Source of the DNA: Flavobacteriales bacterium | Lineage (GTDB): Bacteria; Bacteroidota; Bacteroidia; Flavobacteriales_D; UBA2798 | DNA length: 64,000 bases | Direction: 5' to 3' | Assembly (NCBI GenBank): GCA_037443205.1 | Contig: JBBIOU010000015.1 | Location: forward strand, 9,800-73,799 | In this document: positions 7,074 to 53,436 of the stretch, in pieces | Position numbering within the stretch: the stretch's first letter is position 1 | How the letters are laid out: each line of letters begins with the position of its first letter | Notes under the pieces: generated by a model | The model's database searches: none | What the model saw: the letters and a program-made list of their open reading frames with translations, nothing else | Told to the model about the DNA's origin: nothing | Made by a program: the position numbers and the translations under genes

Positions 7074-8954
7074 ATGCAACCTCTAGCCCCTAAAAATCGT
7101 CCATTTAAAAATTCAGTATTTATGCAATTCATAAAACTTGTTTATATTCTGCTTTTTGCAGCAATTCATACACTAGCCACTCCTCAACAGCATCAACATA
7201 CAACTGAAGGTTTCATTCAAATTAACCGAAATTTGGATTTAGGCTCACAGGCAGAACAACTTATTAATACCCATTTTAGTTATTCAGTTGTATTAGAAAA
7301 ACTTAGTGTTTTAAGTGGTGATCCTATCGAGAAGATACAATCAGAATATGATGACTTTATTAAAACAAAGTTGAATATATTTAAGCGAAAATTTGTGTGT
7401 GATTACAAAAACGGATTATACCCAACAGACCACGATATAGAAAAATTCATTATCAAATCCTCTATGAAAATGTTGGAAATTTATAGAATATTAAAAAATG
7501 GCGATTATAATAGTTTTAATGAGAATAAACTCCATAAAGAAAATAACCTGACATTAAAAGCAGCTAATGGTCCATGCCTGAATCCTGACATGGAGACCTG
7601 CGATTTTACCGACTGGGATTTAACTACCGGTACCCATGACGGTAGTGCACCTTTTGCTTATGCATTTGTAACTCCAACTACATCCTGGAGCGTTTTTTCG
7701 GGAACCAGTTCATCCGATCAGCATTACATTGTTAATGCCGCCAGTGGTAATGATCAGTTTGGGTTCCCTATGCTAAACCCCGATGGGGGTGTGTGCTCAG
7801 CCATGTTGGGCGATTATACCGGAACAGGTGCACTTGCATCGAGTATGCGTAAAACATTTTTAGTTTCGGGTAATAACTCGGTTTTTGTTATAAATTATGC
7901 AGCGGTTTTAGAAAATCCATCAGGCCATTTACCCAACGAAATGCCTTATTTCAGAATAAGGGTATATGACCAAAACAACAACGAGCTTTCTTGCGGTACG
8001 GTAAACGTATATTCGGGCGATGGTCAACCCGGCTGGAATGTATCAGGTTCGGGAGGGATACAATGGAAACCCTGGACTACTTTATTTGTGCCTCTCACCG
8101 GCTATCAAAATCAAAATGTAACAGTTGAATTTACAGTTGGTGATTGTTCACTTAGCGGACATTATGGTTATGCTTATGTTGAAGCTTCGTGCCAACCTGC
8201 CATGATACAACTGGCAGCCGGAAGCACCGTATGCTCTGATAGTGTAGTGGTTACCGGGCCTCCGGGTGCTGCAGGCTATTTATGGAATACCGGAGATACC
8301 ACCCAGCAAATTACCATCACCCAATCAGGATATTACGCAGTAACTGTTACCCCGCTTACGGGGGCAAATTGTACAGTTACTCTTGATACCAATATTTATA
8401 TTAACACTGCCCCGCCTGTATCATCGTTTACTCATAATGCACCGCAATGCTTAGGTCGGGGAGCTGTTAGTTTTTATAACCAATCATATCCGGGCGATAC
8501 AGCTATGCCAATCATAAACTGGGTTTGGGATTTTGGAGACGGTAATATCATTACTGATACTGCACAACTTAATCATGATCACATCTATGCCGATTCAGGC
8601 AACTACGAAGTATCGCTGATTGTAACTGCTTTAAACGGTTGTAAAGACACCTTAAATACCAGTATATATATTGAAGAACCTTATAAACTTTTTATACCCA
8701 ATGTATTTTCTCCTAATAGCGACAATGTAAATGACTATTTTAAAGTATTAACCGGATGCATCAATGAACTGGTAGTTGATATTTACGACCGTTGGGGAAA
8801 TTACGTGTATGGGTACAATGATAAAAATGGTAAATGGGATGGCTTGAGGGATAATAAGAAGGCAGATGATGGTGTATATTATTACATTGTTAAAGTAACC
8901 GACAGAGATAATGTGATGCAGGTTTATACCGGCACGGTAACCTTAATTCGTTAA
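7074..8954 (+). CDS. T9SS type-B C-terminal-domain (gliding-motility CTD) surface protein with PKD-like domain
   Basis: The C-terminus FIPNVFSPNSDNVNDYFKV...DIYDRWGNYVY...WDG...DDGVYYYIVKV...GTVTLIR is the type-B CTD signature. A PKD-like segment reads WVWDFGDGN...HIYADSGNYEVSLIVTALNGC. An alternative start is ATG 7122 (MQFIKLVYILLFAAIHTLA). Confidence 0.8.
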   Translation: MQPLAPKNRPFKNSVFMQFIKLVYILLFAAIHTLATPQQHQHTTEGFIQINRNLDLGSQAEQLINTHFSYSVVLEKLSVLSGDPIEKIQSEYDDFIKTKLNIFKRKFVCDYKNGLYPTDHDIEKFIIKSSMKMLEIYRILKNGDYNSFNENKLHKENNLTLKAANGPCLNPDMETCDFTDWDLTTGTHDGSAPFAYAFVTPTTSWSVFSGTSSSDQHYIVNAASGNDQFGFPMLNPDGGVCSAMLGDYTGTGALASSMRKTFLVSGNNSVFVINYAAVLENPSGHLPNEMPYFRIRVYDQNNNELSCGTVNVYSGDGQPGWNVSGSGGIQWKPWTTLFVPLTGYQNQNVTVEFTVGDCSLSGHYGYAYVEASCQPAMIQLAAGSTVCSDSVVVTGPPGAAGYLWNTGDTTQQITITQSGYYAVTVTPLTGANCTVTLDTNIYINTAPPVSSFTHNAPQCLGRGAVSFYNQSYPGDTAMPIINWVWDFGDGNIITDTAQLNHDHIYADSGNYEVSLIVTALNGCKDTLNTSIYIEEPYKLFIPNVFSPNSDNVNDYFKVLTGCINELVVDIYDRWGNYVYGYNDKNGKWDGLRDNKKADDGVYYYIVKVTDRDNVMQVYTGTVTLIR

Positions 8955-25203: not shown

Positions 25204-25266
25204 AATATTAATTTTCGGTAAAGTAAATAAAAAATGGGTTTTTTGAGATATGATTTACATCATAAA

Positions 25267-25410
25267 CCCAAATTCAGCATTAGAAATTTGAATTTATTTC
25301 AAATTTTCGGCCAGAGGCGGACTGAGTGTGTTGAGTGTCGTGTGGGATTTGGGTTATCTGCCATCAGGCGAACATTACCCATTAGCATGCGTAATGTGTG
25401 ATAAAAAACA
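25267..25410 (+). repeat. Copy 1 of ~143-bp structured intergenic repeat
   Basis: Aligns by eye with 29119-29261. The first ~62 nt differ at 3 positions. Contains the AT hairpin gaaatttgaa/ttcaaattt and a long-range cccaaat/atttggg pairing. Confidence 0.7.
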
Positions 25411-28308: not shown

Positions 28309-28878
28309 TTAAACCCGTAAAGATGCACGAAAGCCTCTGGCTGCGTAGTAAGACTCTGCACCGTTGTGGTAAACAAACACCTTACCATACCGATAGTCAC
28401 CAAAAATGGCACCTCCCAGTTTTCTGATATCATCGGGCGTTTTTAACCAACTGGATGTTTTTGTATCAAATTTATCCAAGGTTTGCAAATAGCGGTATTC
28501 CTCTTCATTGAGTATTTCAACACCTATAGATTTTGCGAAGCCTAACGCACTGTTCTTAGGTTTATTTTCTTTACGCGAATTTAGAGCAGCTTCATCATAA
28601 CAAAAACTTCTGCGTCCGACAGGACTTTCAATTGAACAATCGTAAAAAAAATATTCACCGGATTTTTTATCATATATCACTACATCAGGTTCACCACCTG
28701 TATTCTCCATTTGGTAAAGTGAAAAAAGTTTATCGGGGTTAGATAATAATTTTGATTCTACCTTAGTCCAGTCTATTGCCTTATGCCTATGCATATTTTT
28801 TTCAAAACGAACTTTTAAGTTTTTTAAAAATTCTACTTTTAGTTTAGCAGTAAATTCTTTATTAATTTTTTGTACCAT
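28309..28878 (-). CDS. DUF4256-like protein
   Basis: 189 aa. The pattern ...MENTGGEPDVV...FYDCS.ESP.GRRS.CYD matches my recollection of DUF4256. Function unknown. Confidence 0.45.
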   Translation of the reverse strand: MVQKINKEFTAKLKVEFLKNLKVRFEKNMHRHKAIDWTKVESKLLSNPDKLFSLYQMENTGGEPDVVIYDKKSGEYFFYDCSIESPVGRRSFCYDEAALNSRKENKPKNSALGFAKSIGVEILNEEEYRYLQTLDKFDTKTSSWLKTPDDIRKLGGAIFGDYRYGKVFVYHNGAESYYAARGFRASLRV

Positions 28879-29118
28879 ACTATTCTAATTATAGTGTTCT
28901 AAAAATAGTTTCAAAAATAAATTTTACAGGCATTTGCCAATTTATAAAATTTTAAGCGGGATAATACCATTGTATAATGTCTTATTATCTTAAAGCTTAT
29001 TTTTATTGTTATAAATCAAGATATCTAATGATAAACTCAATTCAATAAAATGTAACACATATTGTTTGTATTGCTTAATGCCGGTTAATTTTTTTCATCA
29101 AATTTAGTTCATTATTAT

Positions 29119-29261
29119 CCCAAATTCAGCATTAGAAATTTGGATTTATTTCAAATTTTCCGCAAGAGGCGGACTGAGTGCTTTGACAAAGGGGCGGGAT
29201 TTGGGTTATCCGCTCTCAGGCGAGCATTACGTATACTAATGCATAATGTAGGAAAAAAACA
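29119..29261 (+). repeat. Copy 2 of ~143-bp structured intergenic repeat
   Basis: See copy 1. Same orientation, ending 134 nt upstream of the SMC-like operon ATG. Confidence 0.7.
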
Positions 29262-29365: not shown

Positions 29366-29373
29366 TATATTTG
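29366..29373 (+). promoter_or_regulatory. -7 box (TAnnTTTG) for the SMC-like operon
   Basis: tatatttg, 22 nt upstream of ATG 29395. It overlaps the TTG at 29371 used by the ORF track, which argues for ATG 29395 as the real start. Confidence 0.45.
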
Positions 29374-29394: not shown

Positions 29395-32049
29395 ATGCTT
29401 AGTAAAATTGCTGTATTAAACTCGCGCGTATACGGAAAAGCAGTGGTACGCGTAGATGATTGCGACTCGCTTCAGTTAGTTGGCCCGAACAACATCGGAA
29501 AAAGTACACTGATATATGCGCTGAACTTTCTCTTTATTATTGATGGTAATAAAATGTCATTCAGCGGTCAACGCAAAGGTGATAAAGAAACTATACATCA
29601 CTACTTCCCTACTCCCAACCAAAGTTATATCGTTTTTGAAATACATAAAATACGTACTTATTGCGTATTGGTAAAACGCGATACCGATGGTGAATTAGAA
29701 TATTACCGATTTGATAGTGAATATCGCGATGATTTTTTCTTTCGGGAAGACGGATCGCAGCAACGCCTGCTAAAGTTTGATGAAGTACAGGAAAAATTGG
29801 CCGCCAGCGGTTTAGAACTAACTCAGTTCAGAAATAAATCAGAAGTATTCAGTTATGTATATCAGCGCGGTACCGATAATGACGCAATAGTATGGTTAGA
29901 AGAAAACGTTAAATCGGATGGTTTGAGTAATAATTTCTCAAAAGTTTACCGTTATCTGATTAATTCTAAATTAATTACCAATAAATCGTTAAAAGAAGCC
30001 CTCATCATTGCTGATAACAGAGAAAATGAAGTATTGAACTTTTCGCAAAAAAACAAGAAAGACATTATAGATTTATTGCGACTAAACGATGAAATAAAAG
30101 CAATTAAAGCCGTTAAAGATGATTTCTATAAATTTCGTGAAATAGTAAACGAATACAATTCACGCAATCATATATTAGCAGAACTAACCTATGCATTTGA
30201 GGAATTATACAAAAAAAATCTGCCCGAACTTGATGAACGGATACATAAATTTTCAAAAGAAATAAGTGAAACACAAAGCCAGGTTCAGGATTTTCTTCGC
30301 CCGCGTGAACAAGAAAACAACCGCAGGCTGGGACAAAAAGAATCGGAACTTACCGCACATCTCAGAGCCATCGAAAAACAACAAAAAGAAATACACGAAA
30401 TACATCAATTAGAAGGCTTTGAATTTTTAACCGAAGCGCTCGAAAATTTAGAGCGAAAACGCAAAGAAATAGAAGCACAGATTACTACTGTTGAAGCTCG
30501 TAATTACACTCCCGGACAAATCCGTTCAAGATTAGACATAATTAACGCCTCGATACGCGAAAAAGAAAACCGTATCAATAATTTTAATAATCTGCTTATT
30601 CATAAAATTTCGAATGACGAGCATACACGAAAATTATTAAACACCGTACTTTCCGAAAAAATAACCGGATTGCCTGCCGATAAAATACTCAGCAAAATAA
30701 GCAAAGCTACCCGCGACCTGAAAATATTTGACGGTGAAATAGACATCAGCGGCATTGAATTAAAAGATTTTACCACCGTTGAAGAAATGACAGCCGAGCT
30801 GGAAGAACTGAAAAAAGAAAAAGAACATTACGAAAACTTATTAAATACCATAACCGACAGCGAAACAGTTCAACAAGAATTAACGCTCATCAAACAAGAA
30901 ATTGACGATACCAAAGAAAAAATTAAAAAAATACGCTCGCTGCCCGAACTGGAACAAAACCTAAGTAAACTGCGCCTGGAATACGAAGAAACGCGCGAAG
31001 AAAAAGAAACCATCGAAGCCGAACTGAAAGACATTGCCGAAGATATACATCAAAAAGAATTACGCTTAGGCTTATTGAGAGAAGAAAAGAAAAAAGCCGA
31101 AGAAAAATTAAATGAATTGCGCGAACGCAAACAAGAAGTTGACTTTTTGAATCTGCAACCAATACCCTGCGAATTAACTGAAAGCATAGAACAAGTTTAT
31201 AATAAATTAAAAAAATATTATGGCGAACGACTGGAACTAAAATCACAAAAAGATAAAGCTTTCGATAATTTACGCTACCACCTAAAAAGCTCTATTGCCG
31301 ATGAAGACAGCTTTATTCACTATTTTGAAGAAGAAATAGCCTGCCTTGCAGATAAAGAAAAAAGTATTGACGGCCTCTTGCAAAGCATCTCTACACAATT
31401 TGCAAACCCCGCATACACACTTATTAAACGCTATGAAGAATTTAAACAATTTATTTACAATAAATTCAATCAAAAACTTGCACAAACCCGTATATCCGAT
31501 ATAGAATCTTTACAAATTGAGTTAATTGATAACAAACGAGTACTCAATGACATAAAAATGATAAGTTCTATCCAGGAACTAAACGGACAAATGATGCTCG
31601 AGTTCGACCAAAGCGAAAACCTGTCTATCTTAAATAATTATCTGGATAGTTCTAAACGCGTATATTTTGACGAATTATTTGACATTGAACTACATCTTAC
31701 ACTTAAAGGACATGTAAAAAAAGTTGACCTTGCCAATCAGGTAGAATCAGACGGAACAGACCGTATGATACGTTTGGTTATCATCATGTCTATTATTAAC
31801 CGCCTGGCCGTAAACCACGAGTTAAACCGCATAACACTCTTTATAGACGAAGTAGCAACCATAGACAAACACAATCGTCCGGAGTTGGTTAAATTTTGCC
31901 GCGAACACAACTTTATACCAATTTTTGCCGCCCCGGACCCTGTACCCGGATTTGGCAAATATTACTTTATCTATCCTTCAAAAGGAAAGATAAACATCAA
32001 CGAAAAACTAAATGCAGTTTACAGCGAACCTTTAGCCGAAACAAACTAA
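29395..32049 (+). CDS. SMC/MukB/JetC-like ABC ATPase with short coiled-coil arms
   Basis: Walker A GPNNIGKST (29482-29508). Two long heptad-rich Glu/Lys/Leu segments flank a non-coiled middle region. The C-terminal head has the signature-like ESDGTDRMIRLVIIMSIINRL (SDGT at 31747-31758) and Walker B LFIDEV (31837-31854) about 30 aa later. Confidence 0.75.
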   Translation: MLSKIAVLNSRVYGKAVVRVDDCDSLQLVGPNNIGKSTLIYALNFLFIIDGNKMSFSGQRKGDKETIHHYFPTPNQSYIVFEIHKIRTYCVLVKRDTDGELEYYRFDSEYRDDFFFREDGSQQRLLKFDEVQEKLAASGLELTQFRNKSEVFSYVYQRGTDNDAIVWLEENVKSDGLSNNFSKVYRYLINSKLITNKSLKEALIIADNRENEVLNFSQKNKKDIIDLLRLNDEIKAIKAVKDDFYKFREIVNEYNSRNHILAELTYAFEELYKKNLPELDERIHKFSKEISETQSQVQDFLRPREQENNRRLGQKESELTAHLRAIEKQQKEIHEIHQLEGFEFLTEALENLERKRKEIEAQITTVEARNYTPGQIRSRLDIINASIREKENRINNFNNLLIHKISNDEHTRKLLNTVLSEKITGLPADKILSKISKATRDLKIFDGEIDISGIELKDFTTVEEMTAELEELKKEKEHYENLLNTITDSETVQQELTLIKQEIDDTKEKIKKIRSLPELEQNLSKLRLEYEETREEKETIEAELKDIAEDIHQKELRLGLLREEKKKAEEKLNELRERKQEVDFLNLQPIPCELTESIEQVYNKLKKYYGERLELKSQKDKAFDNLRYHLKSSIADEDSFIHYFEEEIACLADKEKSIDGLLQSISTQFANPAYTLIKRYEEFKQFIYNKFNQKLAQTRISDIESLQIELIDNKRVLNDIKMISSIQELNGQMMLEFDQSENLSILNNYLDSSKRVYFDELFDIELHLTLKGHVKKVDLANQVESDGTDRMIRLVIIMSIINRLAVNHELNRITLFIDEVATIDKHNRPELVKFCREHNFIPIFAAPDPVPGFGKYYFIYPSKGKININEKLNAVYSEPLAETN

Positions 32050-32052
32050 AAC

Positions 32053-33246
32053 ATGAAAGCAGAAGCACGCACCATACTTTACTTCCTGTGGAATCACTTC
32101 GACTTGCTGAATGAGCTGTTTGAAGAACAAATGCAAAAAGGATATTTGCGCAGAGAATCGCTGGCAAATATTTTAAAAAAATACGAACATGATGTGTCGG
32201 ATAAACTACACGAATACAAAATACTTCGAAGCATAAACGAAGATTTTGAAATACGCCCTGTATTTTTTAATCTGGTTGAATTTGTACAAAACGAATTTAA
32301 ACCCGTATTGCCCGAAACCATAGAAAAATACGGATTTTCTATAACCAACTTATTTAAAAAAATAAAAGAAGGCATTAATGGCGATAAAGAAATTTTAATC
32401 AAACGTATAGAAGATGTGCTGTCGGAAGTGCGACACTTTGTTGAGTCAATAGAAAAAAATACCACCAAACTATTACAGGAAACACGCGCTTTAAAATCGA
32501 ATATAGAAAAAATAGATTATCGGGAAAAAGTACACCGCGCATCCGGGTGGATTGAGCATTACATTGTTCCTTTAAACGAGATACTCGATGTAAATCAACA
32601 TGGTTCACTAACCAACCAATTACACGAAGTAGCTTATTTTGTTAATCTTAAACGCTTAGATTTTCATGACGAGAATGTAAGAGCTCAGTTTGAAAAATTA
32701 TATTCGTTTTTAATCCAAACCAATGACGACCTGTTAAGACAATCTAAAATTCTTACCAATGAATTACTGCCGCTCATTGAACGAATTAAAACCGAGTCGC
32801 TGATACTTTCGGGGTGGATTGAATTTTTGCGCAGGCCATATCATACCGAAGTTCCCCGATTATTCAAAACATCCAGAGAAAACACCTATCAACGTAACTT
32901 CTACTTGGTAGCAAAAGAATATCTGGAGCAATTTTTAGTAGATGAGCCTGTAATGGTAGAAGAAGTTACTGCCTTTCAACAACGCTGGATTTTTAACCGC
33001 GATTTATACAAGGCCAAACTCGAAGCAAAACTTCCTATAGAAGATTTTTTTGAATGGTGTGGAAAAACAGCAAAGAAAGATTTTCATGAATTAAATCAGG
33101 AAAAATTCTTTTCGCTGGTGAGTTTAATTTTTGAAGATGATATGATTCTGGAAGCCGATAAAAATGCTCCACACACCCAACTACAATTAGAAGATGCTAT
33201 CCTACACGTACCTAAAGTAAAAATTGATAAACATGGAATATCCTAA
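32053..33246 (+). CDS. All-helical kleisin-like (MukF/MksF/JetA-like) subunit candidate
   Basis: Starts 3 nt after the ATPase stop. 397 aa, predicted helical throughout. Assigned from its position between the SMC-like ATPase and the MukE-like protein; no diagnostic motif was seen. Confidence 0.45.
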   Translation: MKAEARTILYFLWNHFDLLNELFEEQMQKGYLRRESLANILKKYEHDVSDKLHEYKILRSINEDFEIRPVFFNLVEFVQNEFKPVLPETIEKYGFSITNLFKKIKEGINGDKEILIKRIEDVLSEVRHFVESIEKNTTKLLQETRALKSNIEKIDYREKVHRASGWIEHYIVPLNEILDVNQHGSLTNQLHEVAYFVNLKRLDFHDENVRAQFEKLYSFLIQTNDDLLRQSKILTNELLPLIERIKTESLILSGWIEFLRRPYHTEVPRLFKTSRENTYQRNFYLVAKEYLEQFLVDEPVMVEEVTAFQQRWIFNRDLYKAKLEAKLPIEDFFEWCGKTAKKDFHELNQEKFFSLVSLIFEDDMILEADKNAPHTQLQLEDAILHVPKVKIDKHGIS

Positions 33247-33763
33247 ATCACACAAACACATCGTAAAAGAATTGTTAGACGGGAAATTTATGCTGCACAG
33301 CGACCCGCTCTATCAAATATTAAAAGATAACCGCGATTTTTACGAACAATTTTTTAAAGAATCGTTTAATTATGAACTCCGGTTTAACAACGATTTTGCG
33401 TTTTTATTATCAACCGAAACCAACGAAACACTTTCAAGAGATATATGTATTTTCTTTGCTTTATTAAGTTATGAAATAGACCGAGACGGGCGAAATTTTA
33501 TTGAAGAAATACAATATTCGGAATGGGATATGGAACGTATTAATCAATATTTTGACAATACTACATATATTGAATTAGTACATAGCAATAAACAACTGCG
33601 CGACCACGACTCCAGAGCTACCTTTATCAATGCCCTTAGCAGGCGAAACATCATCGAAAAAACCACCGAAGGAAGATTTATTTTTACGGCTGCATACAAA
33701 GTATTTATTGATTTTGCAGCAGAACTTGCAAAAAATAAAGTAAAAGAAGGAATGATTGATTAA
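33233..33763 (+). CDS. MukE/MksE/JetB-like (KITE-type) subunit candidate
   Basis: ATG 33233 overlaps the upstream stop by 14 nt (alternative TTG at 33224). HIVKELLDGKFMLHSDPLYQILKDNRDFYEQFFKESFNYELRFNNDFAFLLS resembles the N-terminal 'LLkG.l......w..L......i..yf..iGleL..de..gyAfL' pattern of DUF4194/MukE-like proteins. The C-terminal ...GRFIFTAAYKVFIDFAAEL resembles their C-terminal helix. Confidence 0.5.
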   Translation: MEYPKSHKHIVKELLDGKFMLHSDPLYQILKDNRDFYEQFFKESFNYELRFNNDFAFLLSTETNETLSRDICIFFALLSYEIDRDGRNFIEEIQYSEWDMERINQYFDNTTYIELVHSNKQLRDHDSRATFINALSRRNIIEKTTEGRFIFTAAYKVFIDFAAELAKNKVKEGMID

Positions 33764-44814: not shown

Positions 44815-47289
44815 TTATCGCATTAAAGTTATGTTTCCGCTTTGGTTAATTTCTGAACCGTCACTCAATATCGCGTAAAGTTTGTATGTATAAACTCCGC
44901 TGTTTAATTTTTGTCCTTTGTATGTACCATCCCAACCTACGCTTTGACTGGTAGTATTAAATATTTTTTCGCCCCAGCGATTATAAATGGTAAAGTTCAA
45001 TCCGATTATGTTTTCGCCTAAAACATATAAAACATCGTTAATACCATCTCCGTTAGGCGAAAATGCATTGGGTATGGCTGCTCCGGCCGGTTGTTTAAAA
45101 TGTGCTATAATTACATCATTGGCAGCAAAGGTAGTGCTAATGGAAGAATCTTTATCGCTGGGAGTAGGTGTGCTTGCCATTTCCCAATAATCAAATTCCC
45201 ACCCGCCATAAGCATCAGCTTTTAGTAAGGTTTCAATGCCTCCGTAGTAGGTTCCATACCATGGAAAAGTTTCAATGTGTACGGAATTTATGTCAACTGT
45301 TCCTGAATTGGGTGGATCAACCAGCACGGTAATATTGTATGGTCCGGTTAAATTGTAGCAATCTATCATGGCTTGCGAAAATGCTGCACAACGTTGATTA
45401 ATAAAATCTCTGATTAATTGCACATTGCTTTGCCACGTTGCATAAGAACCACCCCAGCGGGTAATATGCGCTTGCATTTCGGGGTCTATCACTGCCACCA
45501 TGCTATCTAACACATGAAGCATATGAGGACATGAGAAAGTTGTATTTGCCAAATCGGCATATCGGGAAATATAGTATTGTTTAAAAATAGGATTTTCCAT
45601 TAATTTAGAGATAATGTCCGTATGACCTTGACCACCCGGATTAGGAAGATTCTCTGGGTCGCAAGGACCTGCAGTTGGGGAAGAATTGGGGATTCCCGTA
45701 AAATTCACATAATGTCCAAAGGTTGCATCTAAATCCCACAATATATATCTCCATTTCTTTTTATCTCCTAAAGGATTCAATCCCCTCCACCAGCCGGTGT
45801 TCCAATTAAGCCAATCTTTATTTACCGTATATGAATTTATACAGAAATAATCTACCAGACTTTGCCAGTTTAGCAAGCTGTCTACATAGTTCCAGTTAGC
45901 GGGTATGGAACAATCGTTCGACATAATAAATGTTCTTAGAGTATTCCAGTCGGTTGAGGCTGCTGCACCTCCATACTCATTCCACGTACCACCCCAGGTT
46001 TTAATAAACTGGATGTATTCCGGAGAGCCGTTATATTTTTCGTCCTGATCATAATAATACGAAGTATAATCTTTATCATCTACTTTTTCACGTAAATCGT
46101 AAACACCCCAGTATTGACCATTTGCATACAACACACAAAACAGCGAGGTTCTTTCGTCCAGTTTTAAATTTCCGATATCTGAAAGCGTGTGTATATAAGC
46201 GTCTCTGATATGAGCACCGTTACCGGGTGCAAAGGGGTAATTATCGCAAGCTCCCGCTTTTAGTATAATGCGCTGAAATGTTTGCCTGTTTTTAGAATTA
46301 AAAAATTTATGTTTCAGTGCATAGCTGTAGCCATGTTGATCTCTGGTTATAAAGTCTATTCCTCTTTGTCCGTATGCCCAGGAATCGTTGCCGTGTTTAT
46401 TAGCTTCTCCAACGGCTTCGGTTTTAAATTGTTTATCTGCACCAAAATATTCAATACCTGCATCCGGGGTAATTTGGCTGCCACCTAAAAGTGTACCGAT
46501 TTGGTCGCCAAATATAGAAACTACAGGCACAGTATGGTTTACGTTTATAAAATACGTATTACTTTCTGTAAAACTTGCCGGTGTACCGGCTAAAAATGCC
46601 TTTGCGCGTAAAACTGTGGTTGTGGCAATATTTACGGGAGCGGTATAAAGCGTAGAAGCTGCCGTTGGCTCACTGCCATTGGTGGTGTATCGAATTTCAG
46701 CACCGGGTGTGGCACAGGTAATACTTACATTTTGTGCCGATGAGTAAAATCCTGCATTGATGCTCATAACGGGGCGGGCAACGTAATCCGGTTGTGCGTT
46801 TATGTTTGCGGCTCCGGGAGTTGGCGTTATAAACAAACTCCAACTCGTTGCACCATCTGTTGTTCTGCCGCGGGAATGATCTTTTTGTGTTGGATTTAAA
46901 GTAATATTTTCCAAAATTGTTCCCGAAGGATCTGAAAATACCAGATTTTCGGGTTGTGTTTGGTTTAACCTGAAATTTGTATGCACACCGGGGGCAATAA
47001 CCGCATCGCGACCACTGCAAAAAACCAGCAAATATCCATTAGCCGGCACACTTGTTCCTGCAGGGAATTGCCATTTGGTGGGATTGTTGGCTTTATCACT
47101 AAAATAATAACCTGTTAAATTTACCGCTGTGCTGCCCGGATTATAAAATTCTACCCAATCATCTCTGTCTCCGGCCGACTGAATACCATTGAGATTCGCA
47201 CAAGAATACTCGTTTATTACTACCTGTGCATATAAGTTTTCAGTAAATAATAAAGTTAAAATGAAGAATGAACGGTAAATAAATTTCAT
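44815..47289 (-). CDS. T9SS cargo: lamin-tail-domain + CotH-like domain + type-B C-terminal domain protein
   Basis: LTD: VVINEYSCAN...DWVEFYNPGSTAVNLTGYYFSD. The central region is CotH-like. The C-terminus IPNAFSPNGDGINDVLYV...IYNRWGEKIF...WDGTYKGQKLNSGVYTYKL...GNITLMR is a type-B CTD. Confidence 0.75.
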   Translation of the reverse strand: MKFIYRSFFILTLLFTENLYAQVVINEYSCANLNGIQSAGDRDDWVEFYNPGSTAVNLTGYYFSDKANNPTKWQFPAGTSVPANGYLLVFCSGRDAVIAPGVHTNFRLNQTQPENLVFSDPSGTILENITLNPTQKDHSRGRTTDGATSWSLFITPTPGAANINAQPDYVARPVMSINAGFYSSAQNVSITCATPGAEIRYTTNGSEPTAASTLYTAPVNIATTTVLRAKAFLAGTPASFTESNTYFINVNHTVPVVSIFGDQIGTLLGGSQITPDAGIEYFGADKQFKTEAVGEANKHGNDSWAYGQRGIDFITRDQHGYSYALKHKFFNSKNRQTFQRIILKAGACDNYPFAPGNGAHIRDAYIHTLSDIGNLKLDERTSLFCVLYANGQYWGVYDLREKVDDKDYTSYYYDQDEKYNGSPEYIQFIKTWGGTWNEYGGAAASTDWNTLRTFIMSNDCSIPANWNYVDSLLNWQSLVDYFCINSYTVNKDWLNWNTGWWRGLNPLGDKKKWRYILWDLDATFGHYVNFTGIPNSSPTAGPCDPENLPNPGGQGHTDIISKLMENPIFKQYYISRYADLANTTFSCPHMLHVLDSMVAVIDPEMQAHITRWGGSYATWQSNVQLIRDFINQRCAAFSQAMIDCYNLTGPYNITVLVDPPNSGTVDINSVHIETFPWYGTYYGGIETLLKADAYGGWEFDYWEMASTPTPSDKDSSISTTFAANDVIIAHFKQPAGAAIPNAFSPNGDGINDVLYVLGENIIGLNFTIYNRWGEKIFNTTSQSVGWDGTYKGQKLNSGVYTYKLYAILSDGSEINQSGNITLMR

Positions 47290-49093: not shown

Positions 49094-52000
49094 ATGAAAA
49101 AAAATTTATTCTTCCTGTTTTTAATATTTACCGGCTTATTAAGTGCTCAGAATATACAAAAAACAAATAAAAGCTGGAAAGCAGATTTTGGCGATGTAAA
49201 ATGCTTTATCGAAAACCGCGGACAATTTAAAGTATCAGACAATAAAGAATTAAACGCTCAAATAAAATTTGCTTTTGACGGTCATAACGAGCGGTATTTG
49301 TTTACGCCTCAGGGAGTAGTAATAGAATTAATCAACAAAGAAAAAATCATTAAAACCCCCGAAGAAAGAGCTGCCAGAAAAGAAAGAAAAAAACAAGGTT
49401 TTTCATCCGATAAAGAATTTTATGAATATGAAACTGGCGAAAAGTTAAAGACCATCGCGAATATTTGTTTGCAAACTGGATTGACGCCAACCCGCAAGTA
49501 GAAATTATTGCCGAGCAAAAAAACACTTATTATCACAGTTACTGCATCGAAAACGAATCAGGCGATGAAATAAACATCAATTACATTCCCTCTTACAATA
49601 AATTAATTTATAAAAATATTTACCCGAATATTGATGTAATATACGAATTCCATCCGGTTAAAGGATTAAAATATTCGCTGGTAGTAAAACCTGGCGCTGA
49701 ACTAAGCCGTGTAAAACTTCAGTATTCAAAAAACTGTAAATTACTGTTAAACGGAACTATAGAAACACCCACAAAATTCGGAGATATAATTGACCATAAA
49801 CCGGTAACATTTTATGCAAACAATAAAAACAAAATTATATCCTCGGCATACGAATTAAAAGATGGGATAATCAGTTTTAAAATTGGTGATTACGATCAAA
49901 GCAAAACCATTATCATAGACCCTTGGACCCAAACGCCAAATTTTCCGAATACCAACTGGGACAGCGTTTGGGAATGTGAAAGAGACGGTGCCGGGAATGT
50001 ATATATTATAGGCGGTACATCACCTTTAGAATTAAGAAAATACAATGCGGCAGGAGTACAACAATGGATTTATAACACTACTTACGATACAACAGAATGG
50101 TTAGGAACATTTGCAACCGACTTAAACGGAATCTCATACGTAGCCAATGGTTCACCTGCAAGAATACGAAGTGTTAGTACGGCCGGAGCAACTATCTGGA
50201 ACAATAATAATCCGGGCGGTATTTTTACTTCTACCGAATTTTGGAATATTACTTTTAACTGCGATCAAACACAATTGGTTATTGCAGGAACAGGGGGCGT
50301 ACTTCCTCCGCTGCCTTACATTTACCGTATAAACATGACTAATGGAAATGTAATAAACAGCCAGCAGGTATGCGGAAGTTCTATAACACCTACCGGTACA
50401 CAAGAAGTACGTTCTATTACCCCCTGCAACAATGGTAAATATTATTTTTTAACCCATGATACCATTGGTTATATCCACCAAAGTTTAAGCAGTTGCTTAC
50501 AAGGCGGACAACCTTTTCATGTTAACAACGGAATAGATTTGGGTTATAAATGCGAAAATTTCAGATATAACAATACCGGGATTATGGCTTTGGCTTATTA
50601 TAACGGTTTTGTATTTGTACATAGAGGGAATCAATTACAAAAAAGAGATTTTAACACTGCAGCAGTTGTAGCAACAGCAAATATTCCCGGAGGTGTGTTT
50701 AACAATGTATTCTTAAGCGGAAATGAAGTTGGATGCAGCGGAATTGATATAGATGACTGCGGAAATATTTATGTAGGCTCTACAAATGGTGTATATAGAT
50801 TTAATCAATCATTAACACAAACCGGTTCTTTTGCCACTTCGTTTAATGTGTATGATGTTGAGGTAAATTCGGGGGGCGAAGTAATTGCCTGCGGTTCTAC
50901 CGGTAACCAAAACTCTGCCACACGCACCGGTAGCATTCAATCGTTTGCGGCTTCTGCCTGTAACCCGCAAGCCATAGTTTGCTGCGATGCAACCATTTGT
51001 AATGCCGGGCCACTATGTACTACCGATCCGGCTATAAATCTTACCGTAATGACACCCGGAGGAACCTGGTCGGCATCTTGCGGTACTTGTATTAATTCAG
51101 CAGGTACCTTTAATCCCTCAACTGCAGGAGCAGGTACACATACAATCATATATACACTAGGTTGCGGTGCCGACTCCATACAAATTACCGTAAACAACTG
51201 CTCTCCGCTATCTGTATGTGTAGAACAAAACGGCACCCTCACCGTAAGCGGAGGAACAGGGCCGTATACCTGGAGCCAATGGAATCCGGGAGGATCAACG
51301 CCTATTACTAATCAAACGCAATGTCTTTCTTGTAACCCCTCTTACACATGGCTTGCTTTTCCTCCACCCGGGCAATGTTTAAATGGCGTTATACCGGTTA
51401 ATACATGCAATGTACCTGCCGGTTATCAAACCTACGCTACCGGCAGCAATGCTCCCGCACCTACTCAATTTCCTGCTCAGGTGCAAGATAATACCGGGCA
51501 AACATTTACCATCAATAATTTAGGTTCACTACCTAACTGCACCTCTTGCCCAACTATCACCGTAAGCACAAGTTCTATCAACCAACCCGCCTGCAACGGA
51601 GGCACAGGCTCAGCAACAGTAAATGCCAGCGGAGGTACAGGACCCTATACCTACTTGTGGACACCGGGAAATTTAAACGGAGCTACACAAAACAATTTAT
51701 TGCCGGGTACTTATACCGTTACAGCTACCGATAATAACAACTGTACAGGTACAACAACCGTAGTTATTAATAACCCTCCTGCCATAAATATTAATGTAAC
51801 CAACAATACACCTGCTACTTGTGGAAATAGCAACGGCAGCATAACGGTAAGTGCCAGTGGCGGTACCGGAACATTGTCTTATTCGTGGAGCCCAAGCGGG
51901 CAAACCGGACCAACAGCCAATAACTTGCCGGGAGGACCCCATACGGTTACCGTTACCGATGCCAATGGATGTACGGCTAACCAAAACATAACTGTAAGCA

Positions 52001-53436
52001 GCACCGGAGGACCAACATTAAGCATCCAATCGCAAAACAATGTAAGTTGTTTTGGAGGCAATGATGGTTCGGCTACCATATCTGCCTCGGGTGGACAAAC
52101 GCCATACAGCTACTCCTGGAGCCCGAGTGGCGGAAACAATCCTGTTGGAACCAATCTTAGCGCAGGAACCTACACAGTGACTGTAACCGATGCTGCGGGA
52201 TGTGTTTCAACCATTGATGTTACCATCACGCAACCGGCAAGCGCCTTAACTGTAAGCACTACTACTACCAACAGTTCGTGTACAGCCAATACCGGAACTG
52301 CTACTGCCAACCCTACTGGCGGCACAGGCCCATACTCCTACAGTTGGAACACTTCACCGATTCAAAATACACAAACAGCCAATAATTTAGGTTTAGGTAC
52401 CTATGTAGTTACCGTAACCGATGCCAACGGCTGTCAAGCTACTGATACAGCCATAGTAACCAATCCAAACGCTCCAAGCATTTCATTGGTATCTCAAAGC
52501 AACGTTACCTGTAACGGAAATACTAATGGTAGCGCAACCGTTAGCGCCAGCGGAGGTACCGGAACACTCTCTATTACCTGGAATACTACCCCGGTGCAAA
52601 CAGGAACCACAGCCAGTAATCTGCCTGCGGGAACCTATGTAGCTACAGTTACCGACCAAAACAGTTGTTCTGCAACAGTAAGCATTACTATTACTGAACC
52701 TGCACCACTTACGGTAAGTATCAGCACGAGTCCTTCTAACTGTGCAGCCTCTGACGGTACTGCCACTGCTAATGCAAGCGGTGGAACAGGTCCCTACACT
52801 TACTCCTGGAGCAATACAGCCACCACACAAACAGTAAATAACTTACCTGCAGGACCCATCAGTGTAAATATTACCGATGCCAATGGATGTACTGCAAATG
52901 CTACGGCAAATATTACAACTATCAACACTGCAAACATTAATGCTGTTCCCCCGTTTGTTACTATCACACAAGGTGAAAGTACAACCTTAACCGCTACCGG
53001 TGGAGTAACTTATACCTGGACACCCGCCAGCGGATTAAGTTGCACGAACTGCCCCAACCCTACAGCCAGCCCTTCGCAAACTACCGTATATTACGTAAGC
53101 GGAGTTGATGCCAACGGCTGTTTTGGAACAGATAGTGTTATTGTATATGTAGATTTACCCTGTGGTGAAATATTTGTGCCTAATGCCTTTTCGCCCAATA
53201 ATGACGGGCAAAATGATAAATTATGTATCTTGGGTGGTTGTTTCCTGTCATTAGATTTTATGATTTTTGACCGATGGGGTGAAAAAGTATTTGAAGCAAC
53301 AAGCACCTCACTATGCTGGGATGGAATATTCAGAGGCAAGCCCATGAATCCCGCTGTATTTTACTACATTCTGAAAGCCACCCTTACTACCGGTGAAACC
53401 ATCGAAAAAAAGGGCAACATCACTTTAATCAGGTAA
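49094..53436 (+). pseudogene. Large SprB-repeat T9SS adhesin-like gene (type-B CTD), split by an apparent 1-nt frameshift near 49440
   Basis: ORF 49094-49501 carries the signal peptide (MKKNLFFLFLIFTGLLSAQN) and the start of the conserved N-terminal domain. ORF 49465-53436 continues that domain (LFANWIDANPQVEI...) in the +1 frame, which opens only at 49432. The C-terminus FVPNAFSPNNDGQNDKLCI...IFDRWGEKVF...WDGIFRGKPMNPAVFYYIL...GNITLIR is a type-B CTD. Confidence 0.7.
51547..52925 (+). repeat. Six tandem ~75-78-aa SprB-type repeats (coding)
   Basis: The recurring unit is C.G..(N/D)G(S/T)AT(V/A)(N/S)ASGG(T/Q)GP(Y/L)(T/S)YSW(S/T/N)....G.T..NL..G.Y.VTVTD.NGC. Confidence 0.8.

What the first reader, a model, noticed from the sequence alone, without database searches (positions are those of the whole stretch)
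29395..33763. Compact three-gene SMC/kleisin/KITE-like operon with ATPase-first order and no associated nuclease: candidate novel condensin-like (Wadjet/Mks/ABC-3C-related) system
Three genes are packed as one transcription unit behind their own TAnnTTTG box (29366-29373). The gaps are 3 nt and then a 14-nt overlap. Gene 1 (884 aa) is an ABC ATPase split by coiled coils. Gene 2 (397 aa) is entirely helical. Gene 3 (~176 aa) shows the N-terminal and C-terminal sequence pattern I associate with MukE/MksE/JetB (DUF4194-type) proteins. The combination of SMC-like ATPase, kleisin-sized helical protein and small winged-helix partner is the logic of MukBEF/MksBEF and of the anti-plasmid Wadjet system JetABC(D). 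It is also the logic of the ABC ATPase-centred three-component conflict systems described by comparative genomics, as I recall. This locus differs from those in four ways. First, the ATPase gene comes first, not last. Second, all three proteins are markedly smaller than typical MukB/JetC (>1000 aa), MukF/JetA (~450-500 aa) and MukE/JetB (~200-240 aa). Third, there is no JetD/MksG-type Toprim nuclease and no other recognisable effector (HNH, PD-(D/E)xK, TIR and so on) within the operon or next to it. Fourth, it is wedged between unrelated housekeeping-type genes, with a dispersed repeat copy just upstream and no mobility genes. It could be a minimal DNA-sensing or loop-extruding module acting in plasmid/phage restriction with an unlinked effector. 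Alternatively it could be a lineage-specific auxiliary chromosome-organisation complex.
Basis: partly seen in the sequence, partly recalled or inferred. Interest (0 to 1): 0.85.

Follow-up and report, generated by a model that had tools for sequence, protein, structure and literature searches.

The report
Nuclease-less mini Wadjet/MksBEF SMC operon
This three-gene operon encodes a small DNA-handling SMC complex of the known MksBEF/Wadjet kind, and close relatives still carry a plasmid-cutting nuclease gene that this lineage has lost, so it is a compact new branch of a known system and not a new kind of machine.

Summary
Three tightly packed genes (29395-32049, 32053-33246, 33233-33763) encode three proteins. 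The first is an SMC-like ABC ATPase of 884 aa. The second is a 397-aa protein whose predicted fold best matches the JetA and MukF kleisins. The third is a 176-aa protein that matches Pfam MksE (E 6e-23).

The same trio, in the same order, is present in all 80 related loci examined, all from uncultured Bacteroidota. 271 species genomes matched in total.

The key new result concerns a fourth gene. In 9 of 78 of these loci, and in a more distant relative, a 261-aa gene lies between genes 1 and 2. Its fold best matches the Wadjet nucleases JetD and MksG. One relative keeps only the 3' end of that gene, and others show clean deletions.

The window therefore carries a nuclease-less derivative of a compact Wadjet lineage with gene order C-D-A-B. 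The trio remains under strong purifying selection (dN/dS about 0.02-0.05). Most neighbouring genes are housekeeping genes.

Nuclease-free MksBEF complexes, and their proposed origin from Wadjet by loss of JetD, are already described in the literature. I rate this a new variant of a known kind, of moderate interest. Its main value is as a natural series for testing how a defence system becomes domesticated.

The parts
29366..29373 (+). TATATTTG, a possible Bacteroidota -7 promoter box 22 nt upstream of the G1 start codon
   Evidence: The sequence was read directly. The motif is not enriched in the window (94 found, 107.6 expected), so the assignment rests on position only.
29395..32049 (+). G1: MksB/JetC-like SMC-family ABC ATPase, 884 aa. 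It has N- and C-terminal head halves, two coiled-coil arms of about 170-180 aa each, and a small central hinge-like block at about 400-460.
   Evidence: Pfam AAA_21 and AAA_29. Weak PADLOC JetC matches (8.5e-5 to 4e-3). Among family members, AAA_29 matches 25/25, DUF3584 2/25 (1e-13) and MukB_N 2/25. The G1 of the outgroup L086 carries PF12128 DUF3584. Walker A, Walker B, the signature-like motif and the H-loop are invariant. The conservation profile shows conserved heads and centre and variable arms.
32053..33246 (+). G2: MksF/JetA/MukF-type kleisin, 397 aa. The model shows an N-terminal winged helix, a helical bundle, a disordered linker (270-311) and a C-terminal winged helix.
   Evidence: AF2 model with pLDDT 72. 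The five best Foldseek PDB matches are JetA 8q72_E (E 8.7e-4), MukF 3rpu_B, 3euh_B and 1t98_A, and JetA 8dk2_A. There is no Pfam family, even for distant relatives. The family is small: 132 hits among 1.84 billion representatives.
33233..33763 (+). G3: MksE-type KITE subunit, 176 aa
   Evidence: Pfam PF21980 MksE, E 6.3e-23, 82 bits, covering 2-161 of 163 profile positions. NCBI names the L001 orthologue 'condensin complex protein MksE'.

Best explanation
The operon encodes a compact MksBEF-type SMC complex. G1 is the SMC-like ATPase (MksB/JetC), G2 is the kleisin that bridges the ATPase heads (MksF/JetA), and G3 is the KITE subunit that sits on the kleisin (MksE/JetB).

It belongs to a divergent branch of the Wadjet family found here only in uncultured Bacteroidota. 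The ancestral operon of this branch was ATPase, Toprim nuclease, kleisin, KITE (C-D-A-B). The nuclease gene has been deleted repeatedly. The window's lineage, together with its four closest sampled relatives, lost it long ago.

By inference, the remaining trio still works as an ATP-driven, DNA-entrapping or loop-extruding motor without a cutting subunit. The most likely role is a domesticated auxiliary condensin acting on the host chromosome, like MksBEF of P. aeruginosa. A less likely role is nuclease-independent restraint of plasmids.

What is shown: subunit identities, operon conservation, the nuclease in relatives, the deletions, and purifying selection. What is inferred: complex formation, loop extrusion, and the cellular role.
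For: The trio is present in the same order in all 80 loci.

A fourth gene lies between G1 and G2 in 9 of 78 loci. Its AF2 model has pLDDT 85. The best PDB matches are JetD 7til_B (probability 0.99), JetD 7til_A and MksG 8b7f_A, followed by topoisomerase IV/VI Toprim domains. Residues E143, D186-x-D188 and E255 are conserved in all or nearly all members. Their spacing matches MksG E236, D279 and E349/351.

The outgroup L086/L087, at 43-47% identity, has the four-gene C-D-A-B order, with DUF3584 on G1 and MksE on G3.

Four-gene loci are scattered across the G2 tree. Fitch parsimony places the gene at the root.

L013 keeps the last approximately 160 bp of the nuclease gene at 96% identity to L011. 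L009 and L017 show clean deletions.

dN/dS is 0.014-0.054 for G1-G3, both in three-gene pairs and in four-gene pairs.

Downstream synteny (chorismate synthase and an M43 peptidase) is shared by about 21 loci. Flanking genes are mostly housekeeping. There are no viral-contig or plasmid matches.

The literature already proposes that MksBEF arose from Wadjet by loss of JetD.
Against: G1, G2 and the fourth gene have no significant sequence-level link to solved JetABCD/MukBEF chains or to E. coli MukF and MukE by hhalign.

The kleisin call rests on one medium-confidence model with low global TM-scores (0.23-0.28).

G1 and G3 were not modelled.

A JetD-like gene elsewhere in the genome cannot be excluded from a 64-kb window.

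I could not test whether the host also has Smc-ScpAB.

Some relatives lie next to defence-type genes, and one lineage shows a decayed operon. The system is therefore not universally indispensable.

The tree is a simple neighbour-joining tree built from one protein.
Confidence: 0.8

Rival explanations
1. The trio is still an anti-plasmid or anti-phage Wadjet sensor that works with a nuclease or other effector encoded elsewhere in the genome.
For: The family is Wadjet-derived. A few relatives have defence-type neighbours such as PDC-S01, MADS, Shedu and AriA-like genes. The window covers only 64 kb.
Against: In every four-gene relative the nuclease gene sits inside the operon. Nuclease-less loci show simple deletions and no sign that the gene was moved. 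No relative of the nuclease is present in the window by tblastn or by HMM. The window neighbours are housekeeping genes.
Confidence: 0.12
2. The motor restrains mobile DNA without cutting it, for example by compaction, silencing or mis-segregation of plasmids. On this view the nuclease is an optional add-on.
For: The trio is under strong selection with or without the nuclease. The nuclease gene evolves several times faster than the trio, at 64% against 88% identity for the same pair. The review draws a parallel with nuclease-free SMC immunity by Smc5/6.
Against: There is no direct evidence. Purified Wadjet systems need JetD for restriction. Constraint this strong, and vertical synteny, suggest a host-directed function.
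Confidence: 0.2
3. The trio is a decaying remnant of a Wadjet system that became useless once the nuclease was lost.
For: One related lineage (L084/L085) has a split ATPase gene, a truncated kleisin gene, no KITE gene and an IS fragment nearby.
Against: In the window all three ORFs are intact and full length, with invariant ATPase motifs. dN/dS is 0.015-0.05 between pairs of three-gene loci. The nuclease-less state persists across the window/L001-L004 clade at 73-75% protein identity.
Confidence: 0.03
4. G1 is an SbcC/Rad50-type or Lamassu (LmuB, ABC-3C) ATPase, and genes 2 and 3 are unrelated accessory proteins.
For: JGI annotates G1 as 'SbcCD ATPase subunit'. There are weak PADLOC LmuB matches (1e-3) and an AriA match (5e-5).
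Against: No SbcD/Mre11 or LmuA-type effector gene was recognised in or beside the operon. There is no CxxC zinc hook in the centre of G1. G3 is a clear MksE. The best fold matches of G2 are kleisins. Family members match DUF3584 and MukB_N.
Confidence: 0.03

Closest known systems
MksBEF (MukBEF-like condensin without a nuclease, for example in Pseudomonas aeruginosa PAO1; Petrushenko 2011, Lioy 2020)
   Same: It is a three-subunit SMC/kleisin/KITE operon with no Toprim subunit. The KITE subunit falls in Pfam MksE. It coexists with housekeeping genes. It is thought to derive from Wadjet by loss of JetD (PMC10586767).
   Different: The gene order is B-F-E; the usual order is F-E-B. All subunits are smaller (884/397/176 aa). 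The kleisin has no Pfam family. It has been found only in uncultured Bacteroidota. Close relatives still carry the nuclease. Function is untested.
Wadjet / JetABCD / MksBEFG / EptABCD anti-plasmid system (types I-III)
   Same: The four-gene relatives have the same four roles: JetC-like ATPase (DUF3584 in some), JetA-like kleisin fold, KITE, and a JetD/MksG-like Toprim protein with the same spacing of catalytic acidic residues.
   Different: The window lacks the nuclease. The order is C-(D)-A-B. PADLOC JetA, JetB and JetD models and Pfam DUF3375, DUF4194, DUF2220 and DUF3322 do not match. The proteins are much shorter: the nuclease is 261 aa against about 370 resolved residues for JetD and MksG, and the ATPase is 884 aa against about 1100-1470 for the JetC profiles.
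MukBEF of E. coli
   Same: The overall SMC/kleisin/KITE logic is the same. MukF crystal structures are among the best fold matches of G2.
   Different: There is no detectable sequence similarity. MukF is 440 aa and MukE 234 aa, and MukB is far longer than G1. The order is F-E-B. MukBEF replaces Smc-ScpAB in its hosts; whether that is so here is unknown.
Lamassu (LmuABC) / ABC-3C systems
   Same: Both have a coiled-coil ABC ATPase in a small operon. LmuB profile matches are weak.
   Different: No LmuA-type effector was recognised here. By the review's definition, SMC-like proteins of the Rad50 class, to which LmuB is likened, have no kleisin or KITE partners, whereas this operon has both.

Membership tests
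MksBEF (nuclease-free MukBEF-like SMC complex) | SMC-like ABC ATPase with split heads, coiled-coil arms and a central dimerisation region | tested here: met
   Walker A, Walker B, the signature-like motif and the H-loop are invariant. Heads and centre are conserved and arms are variable. AAA_29 matches 25/25 members, and DUF3584 and MukB_N match some. The hinge fold itself was not modelled.
MksBEF (nuclease-free MukBEF-like SMC complex) | MukF/MksF-type kleisin (N-terminal winged helix, helical bundle, linker, C-terminal winged helix) | tested here: met
   The domain order of the AF2 model fits. The five best Foldseek PDB matches are JetA and MukF. This is fold-level evidence only; there is no sequence-level match.
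MksBEF (nuclease-free MukBEF-like SMC complex) | MksE/MukE-type KITE subunit | tested here: met
   Pfam PF21980 MksE, 82 bits against a cut-off of 27.
MksBEF (nuclease-free MukBEF-like SMC complex) | No MksG/JetD nuclease in the operon | tested here: met
   The G1-G2 gap is 3 nt. There is no relative of the nuclease in the window.
MksBEF (nuclease-free MukBEF-like SMC complex) | Acts on the host chromosome (organisation or segregation) | not testable with these tools
   Only indirect evidence is available: dN/dS of about 0.02-0.05, synteny within subclades and housekeeping neighbours.
Wadjet (JetABCD) | JetD/MksG Toprim nuclease encoded with the SMC genes | tested here: not met
   It is absent from the window. 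It is present in 9 of 78 related loci and in the outgroup.
Wadjet (JetABCD) | JetC (DUF3584) ATPase | tested here: inconclusive
   The window's G1 gives only weak PADLOC JetC matches (8.5e-5) and no DUF3584 match at E <= 1. Two of 25 family members and the L086 orthologue match DUF3584.
Wadjet (JetABCD) | JetA (DUF3375) and JetB (DUF4194) by sequence profile; operon order A-B-C-D | tested here: not met
   There are no Pfam or PADLOC JetA or JetB matches. The order is C-(D)-A-B.
Lamassu / ABC-3C | LmuA effector plus LmuB SMC-like ATPase (with or without LmuC) | tested here: not met
   No effector-type domain was recognised in the operon or in the immediate neighbours scanned. LmuB matches are weak (1e-3 to 4e-2). 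G2 and G3 are a kleisin and a KITE.
Smc-ScpAB | Canonical SMC (TIGR02168/02169) with ScpA and ScpB | tested here: not met
   NCBIfam SMC scores are about 22 bits against cut-offs of 567-729. There are no ScpA or ScpB matches.
SbcCD / Rad50-Mre11 | Zinc-hook ATPase paired with an Mre11/SbcD nuclease | tested here: not met
   The Rad50 score is 13 bits against a cut-off of 700. There is no CxxC in the centre of G1 (sequence). No SbcD/Mre11-type gene was recognised beside the operon.

The most novel reading that the evidence does not exclude
This Bacteroidota lineage may capture the proposed conversion of a Wadjet plasmid-defence system into a nuclease-free chromosomal SMC complex while it is still in progress. 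The motor trio would be selectively valuable on its own, either as a minimal MukBEF-like loop extruder for the host chromosome or as a non-cutting restraint on plasmids. The Toprim nuclease would be a dispensable, fast-evolving add-on that closely related species have lost independently many times.
Probability: 0.35. Interest if true: 0.65.

Novelty: new variant of a known kind. Interest (0 to 1): 0.5.

Why it matters
The literature speculates that MukBEF and MksBEF arose when Wadjet defence systems lost their nuclease and were taken over for chromosome maintenance. Known examples are ancient and lack intermediates.

Here, near-identical operons with and without the JetD-like gene coexist among sister species, along with a partly deleted copy. 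The trio stays under the same strong constraint in both states. That gives a natural paired series for asking what the motor does without the nuclease.

Apart from weak JetC matches, the PADLOC (2023) and Pfam Wadjet-type models tried here do not recognise it, so model-based surveys of this kind may miss Wadjet-type systems in Bacteroidota.

Tried and rejected
- phmmer and profile hmmsearch of G1, G2, G3 and the fourth gene against PDB sequences gave only coiled-coil noise.
- hhalign of the G2 and G3 family profiles against single E. coli MukF and MukE sequences gave nothing. Single-sequence targets are too weak for this test.
- PADLOC gave no JetA, JetB or JetD match for any subunit, including the four-gene relative L006.
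- Pfam scans of 10 distant kleisin relatives found no named family.
- tblastn of G3 against plasmids found nothing, and the kleisin scan of viral contigs found nothing.
- Rfam found nothing for the window or for the upstream repeat.
- The sigma-70 promoter and intrinsic-terminator scans were at chance level.
- I at first counted L050 as a four-gene locus. Alignment showed that its 206-aa insert is unrelated to the Toprim gene, so the count was corrected to 9 of 78.
- My 'gains-only' count is inflated because it includes two contigs of unknown state. I use only the Fitch result and the direct evidence of deletion.
- dS is saturated between the window and its closest relatives, so no dN/dS could be computed for the window's own branch.

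Full report
**Observation.** The + strand carries three packed ORFs. G1 runs from the ATG at 29395 to 32049 (884 aa). G2 is 32053-33246 (397 aa). G3 runs from the ATG at 33233 to 33763 (176 aa). There is a 3-nt gap and then a 14-nt overlap, as reported. The consensus of homologues supports both ATG starts. TATATTTG sits at 29366-29373. TAnnTTTG is no more frequent in the window than chance (94 against 107.6 expected), so the promoter assignment rests on position only. The upstream dispersed repeat is real (29110-29259 against 25258-25407).

**What the proteins are: G1.**
- G1 has invariant Walker A, Walker B, signature-like and H-loop residues. Its head halves are conserved and its arms are variable, with a small conserved centre at about 400-460.
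- It matches AAA_21 and AAA_29, and it matches PADLOC JetC models weakly.
- Within its family, AAA_29 matches 25 of 25 members. DUF3584 matches 2 of 25 (best E 1e-13), and so does MukB_N.
- Scores against canonical SMC and Rad50 models are far below their cut-offs.

**What the proteins are: G2.**
- G2 has no Pfam, NCBIfam or PADLOC family.
- Its AF2 model (pLDDT 72) has an N-terminal winged helix, a helical bundle, a disordered linker at 270-311 and a C-terminal winged helix.
- The five best Foldseek PDB matches are JetA (8q72_E, E 8.7e-4), MukF (3rpu_B, 3euh_B, 1t98_A) and JetA (8dk2_A).
- Global TM-scores are low (0.23-0.28), as expected for a flexible multi-domain protein.

**What the proteins are: G3.** G3 matches Pfam PF21980 MksE at 82 bits. 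The trio is therefore SMC plus kleisin plus KITE.

**Relatives.**
- A scan of one genome per species found 271 genomes with a G2 relative. The 80 loci retrieved are all Bacteroidota MAGs.
- All 80 keep the order G1-G2-G3, and none shares the window's flanking genes.
- The kleisin family is small, with 132 hits among 1.84 billion representatives. It has no named family even at its edges.
- There were no viral-contig or plasmid matches.

**The missing nuclease.**
- In 9 of 78 loci a gene of about 260-280 aa lies between G1 and G2.
- It has no Pfam or PADLOC match.
- Its AF2 model (pLDDT 85) best matches JetD of P. aeruginosa (7til_B, probability 0.99; 7til_A) and MksG of C. glutamicum (8b7f_A), followed by topoisomerase IV/VI Toprim domains.
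- E143, D186-x-D188 and E255 are conserved in all or nearly all members. Their spacing matches MksG E236, D279 and E349/E351 as given in PMC10123090.
- A more distant relative, L086/L087 (43-47% identity), has the same four-gene order, with DUF3584 on the ATPase and MksE on the KITE.
- Four-gene loci are scattered across the G2 tree, often next to near-identical three-gene loci. Fitch parsimony puts the gene at the root.
- Direct evidence of loss exists. L013 keeps only the last approximately 160 bp of the gene, at 96% identity to L011. L009 and L017 have clean deletions.
- The window's own subclade (window, L001-L004) lacks the gene throughout, and the window has no relative of it anywhere.

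**Is the trio still used?**
- dN/dS is 0.014-0.054 for all three genes. This holds between two three-gene loci and between two four-gene loci.
- The nuclease gene diverges much faster, for example 64% identity where G2 is at 88% for the same pair.
- About 21 loci share downstream chorismate synthase and an M43 peptidase, which points to vertical inheritance at a fixed site within a subclade.
- Of 98 flanking genes, most are housekeeping, and a minority match defence models.
- One lineage (L084/L085) shows a decayed operon beside an IS fragment, so the system can be lost.

**Mechanism.** What is shown is the subunit set, its conservation and the loss of the nuclease. By analogy with MukBEF and JetABC, I infer the following assembly: G1 dimerises through its centre, G2 bridges the neck and cap of the heads and may dimerise through its N-terminal winged helix, and G3 dimers sit on the G2 linker. 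The complex would then entrap and extrude DNA on ATP hydrolysis. Without the Toprim subunit it cannot cut DNA. The most likely role is an auxiliary chromosome-organising complex, as in P. aeruginosa MksBEF. Non-cutting restraint of plasmids is a live alternative. A partner nuclease elsewhere in the genome cannot be excluded from 64 kb of sequence.

**Comparison with what is known.**
- Reviews state that some MksBEF systems carry MksG and others do not. [quoted passage not shown]
- A 2025 preprint argues that loss of the nuclease may fix a former Wadjet system in a chromosomal role (10.1101/2025.03.10.642339).
- The canonical operon is mksFEBG/jetABCD. Here the order is C-(D)-A-B.
- All subunits are smaller than the references. 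JetC profiles are 1097-1473 positions long. JetA chains are 441-466 residues. E. coli JetB is 242 aa. JetD and MksG chains are 365-374 residues.
- NCBI already labels one orthologue of G3 as MksE.

**Verdict.** The feature is real and correctly recognised as a condensin-like trio. It is a nuclease-less member of a compact, previously unmodelled branch of Wadjet/Mks found here only in uncultured Bacteroidota. It is not a new kind of system. Its interest is moderate. It lies in the side-by-side three-gene and four-gene forms, which make the proposed domestication of a defence system directly testable.

Noticed in passing
window 25258-25407 and 29110-29259: This is a dispersed intergenic repeat of about 140 nt (81-86% identity). 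On the + strand it folds into a closing helix (CCCAAAU/AUUUGGG) with inner hairpins (z -2.2 and -1.5). It has no Rfam family. Independent assemblies of the same organism (L081, L082) end about 330 nt upstream of G1, near this repeat, so it is probably multi-copy in the genome. It could be a small RNA or a REP/MITE-like element.
   Followed up: partly
L050 7384-8004: An unrelated 206-aa ORF occupies the slot between the ATPase and kleisin genes where relatives carry the Toprim nuclease gene. The slot may accept other inserted genes.
   Followed up: partly
L084 5318-9580 and L085 1223-5485: This is a degraded copy of the operon. The ATPase gene is split (59 + 795 aa). The Toprim gene is intact. 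The kleisin is truncated at about 260 aa. There is no MksE gene. L085 has an rve integrase fragment just downstream.
   Followed up: partly
L011 6904-7193 (also L009, L013 and L017 upstream of G2): The spacer between the ATPase gene and the nuclease gene contains short, internally repeated sequence, seen as several overlapping blastn matches. This sequence persists in relatives that have deleted the nuclease gene. It might have mediated the deletions.
   Followed up: no
L086 5519-6502: In the distant four-gene relative, a Fic/RhuM-domain gene lies directly downstream of the operon. This context looks more like an accessory region than the window's does.
   Followed up: no
window 49465-53436: This 1323-aa protein has SprB repeats and a CHU_C type IX secretion signal. 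It accounts for the direct-repeat families at 51.8-52.9 kb and for the local rise in G+C at 50-54 kb. Several other T9SS cargo genes lie in the window (7074-8954, 44815-47289).
   Followed up: yes
window 28309-28878 (- strand): A DUF4256 protein (E 2e-85) of unknown function lies just upstream of the operon, beyond the repeat-bearing 490-nt intergenic region. It is not conserved next to the operon in any related locus.
   Followed up: partly
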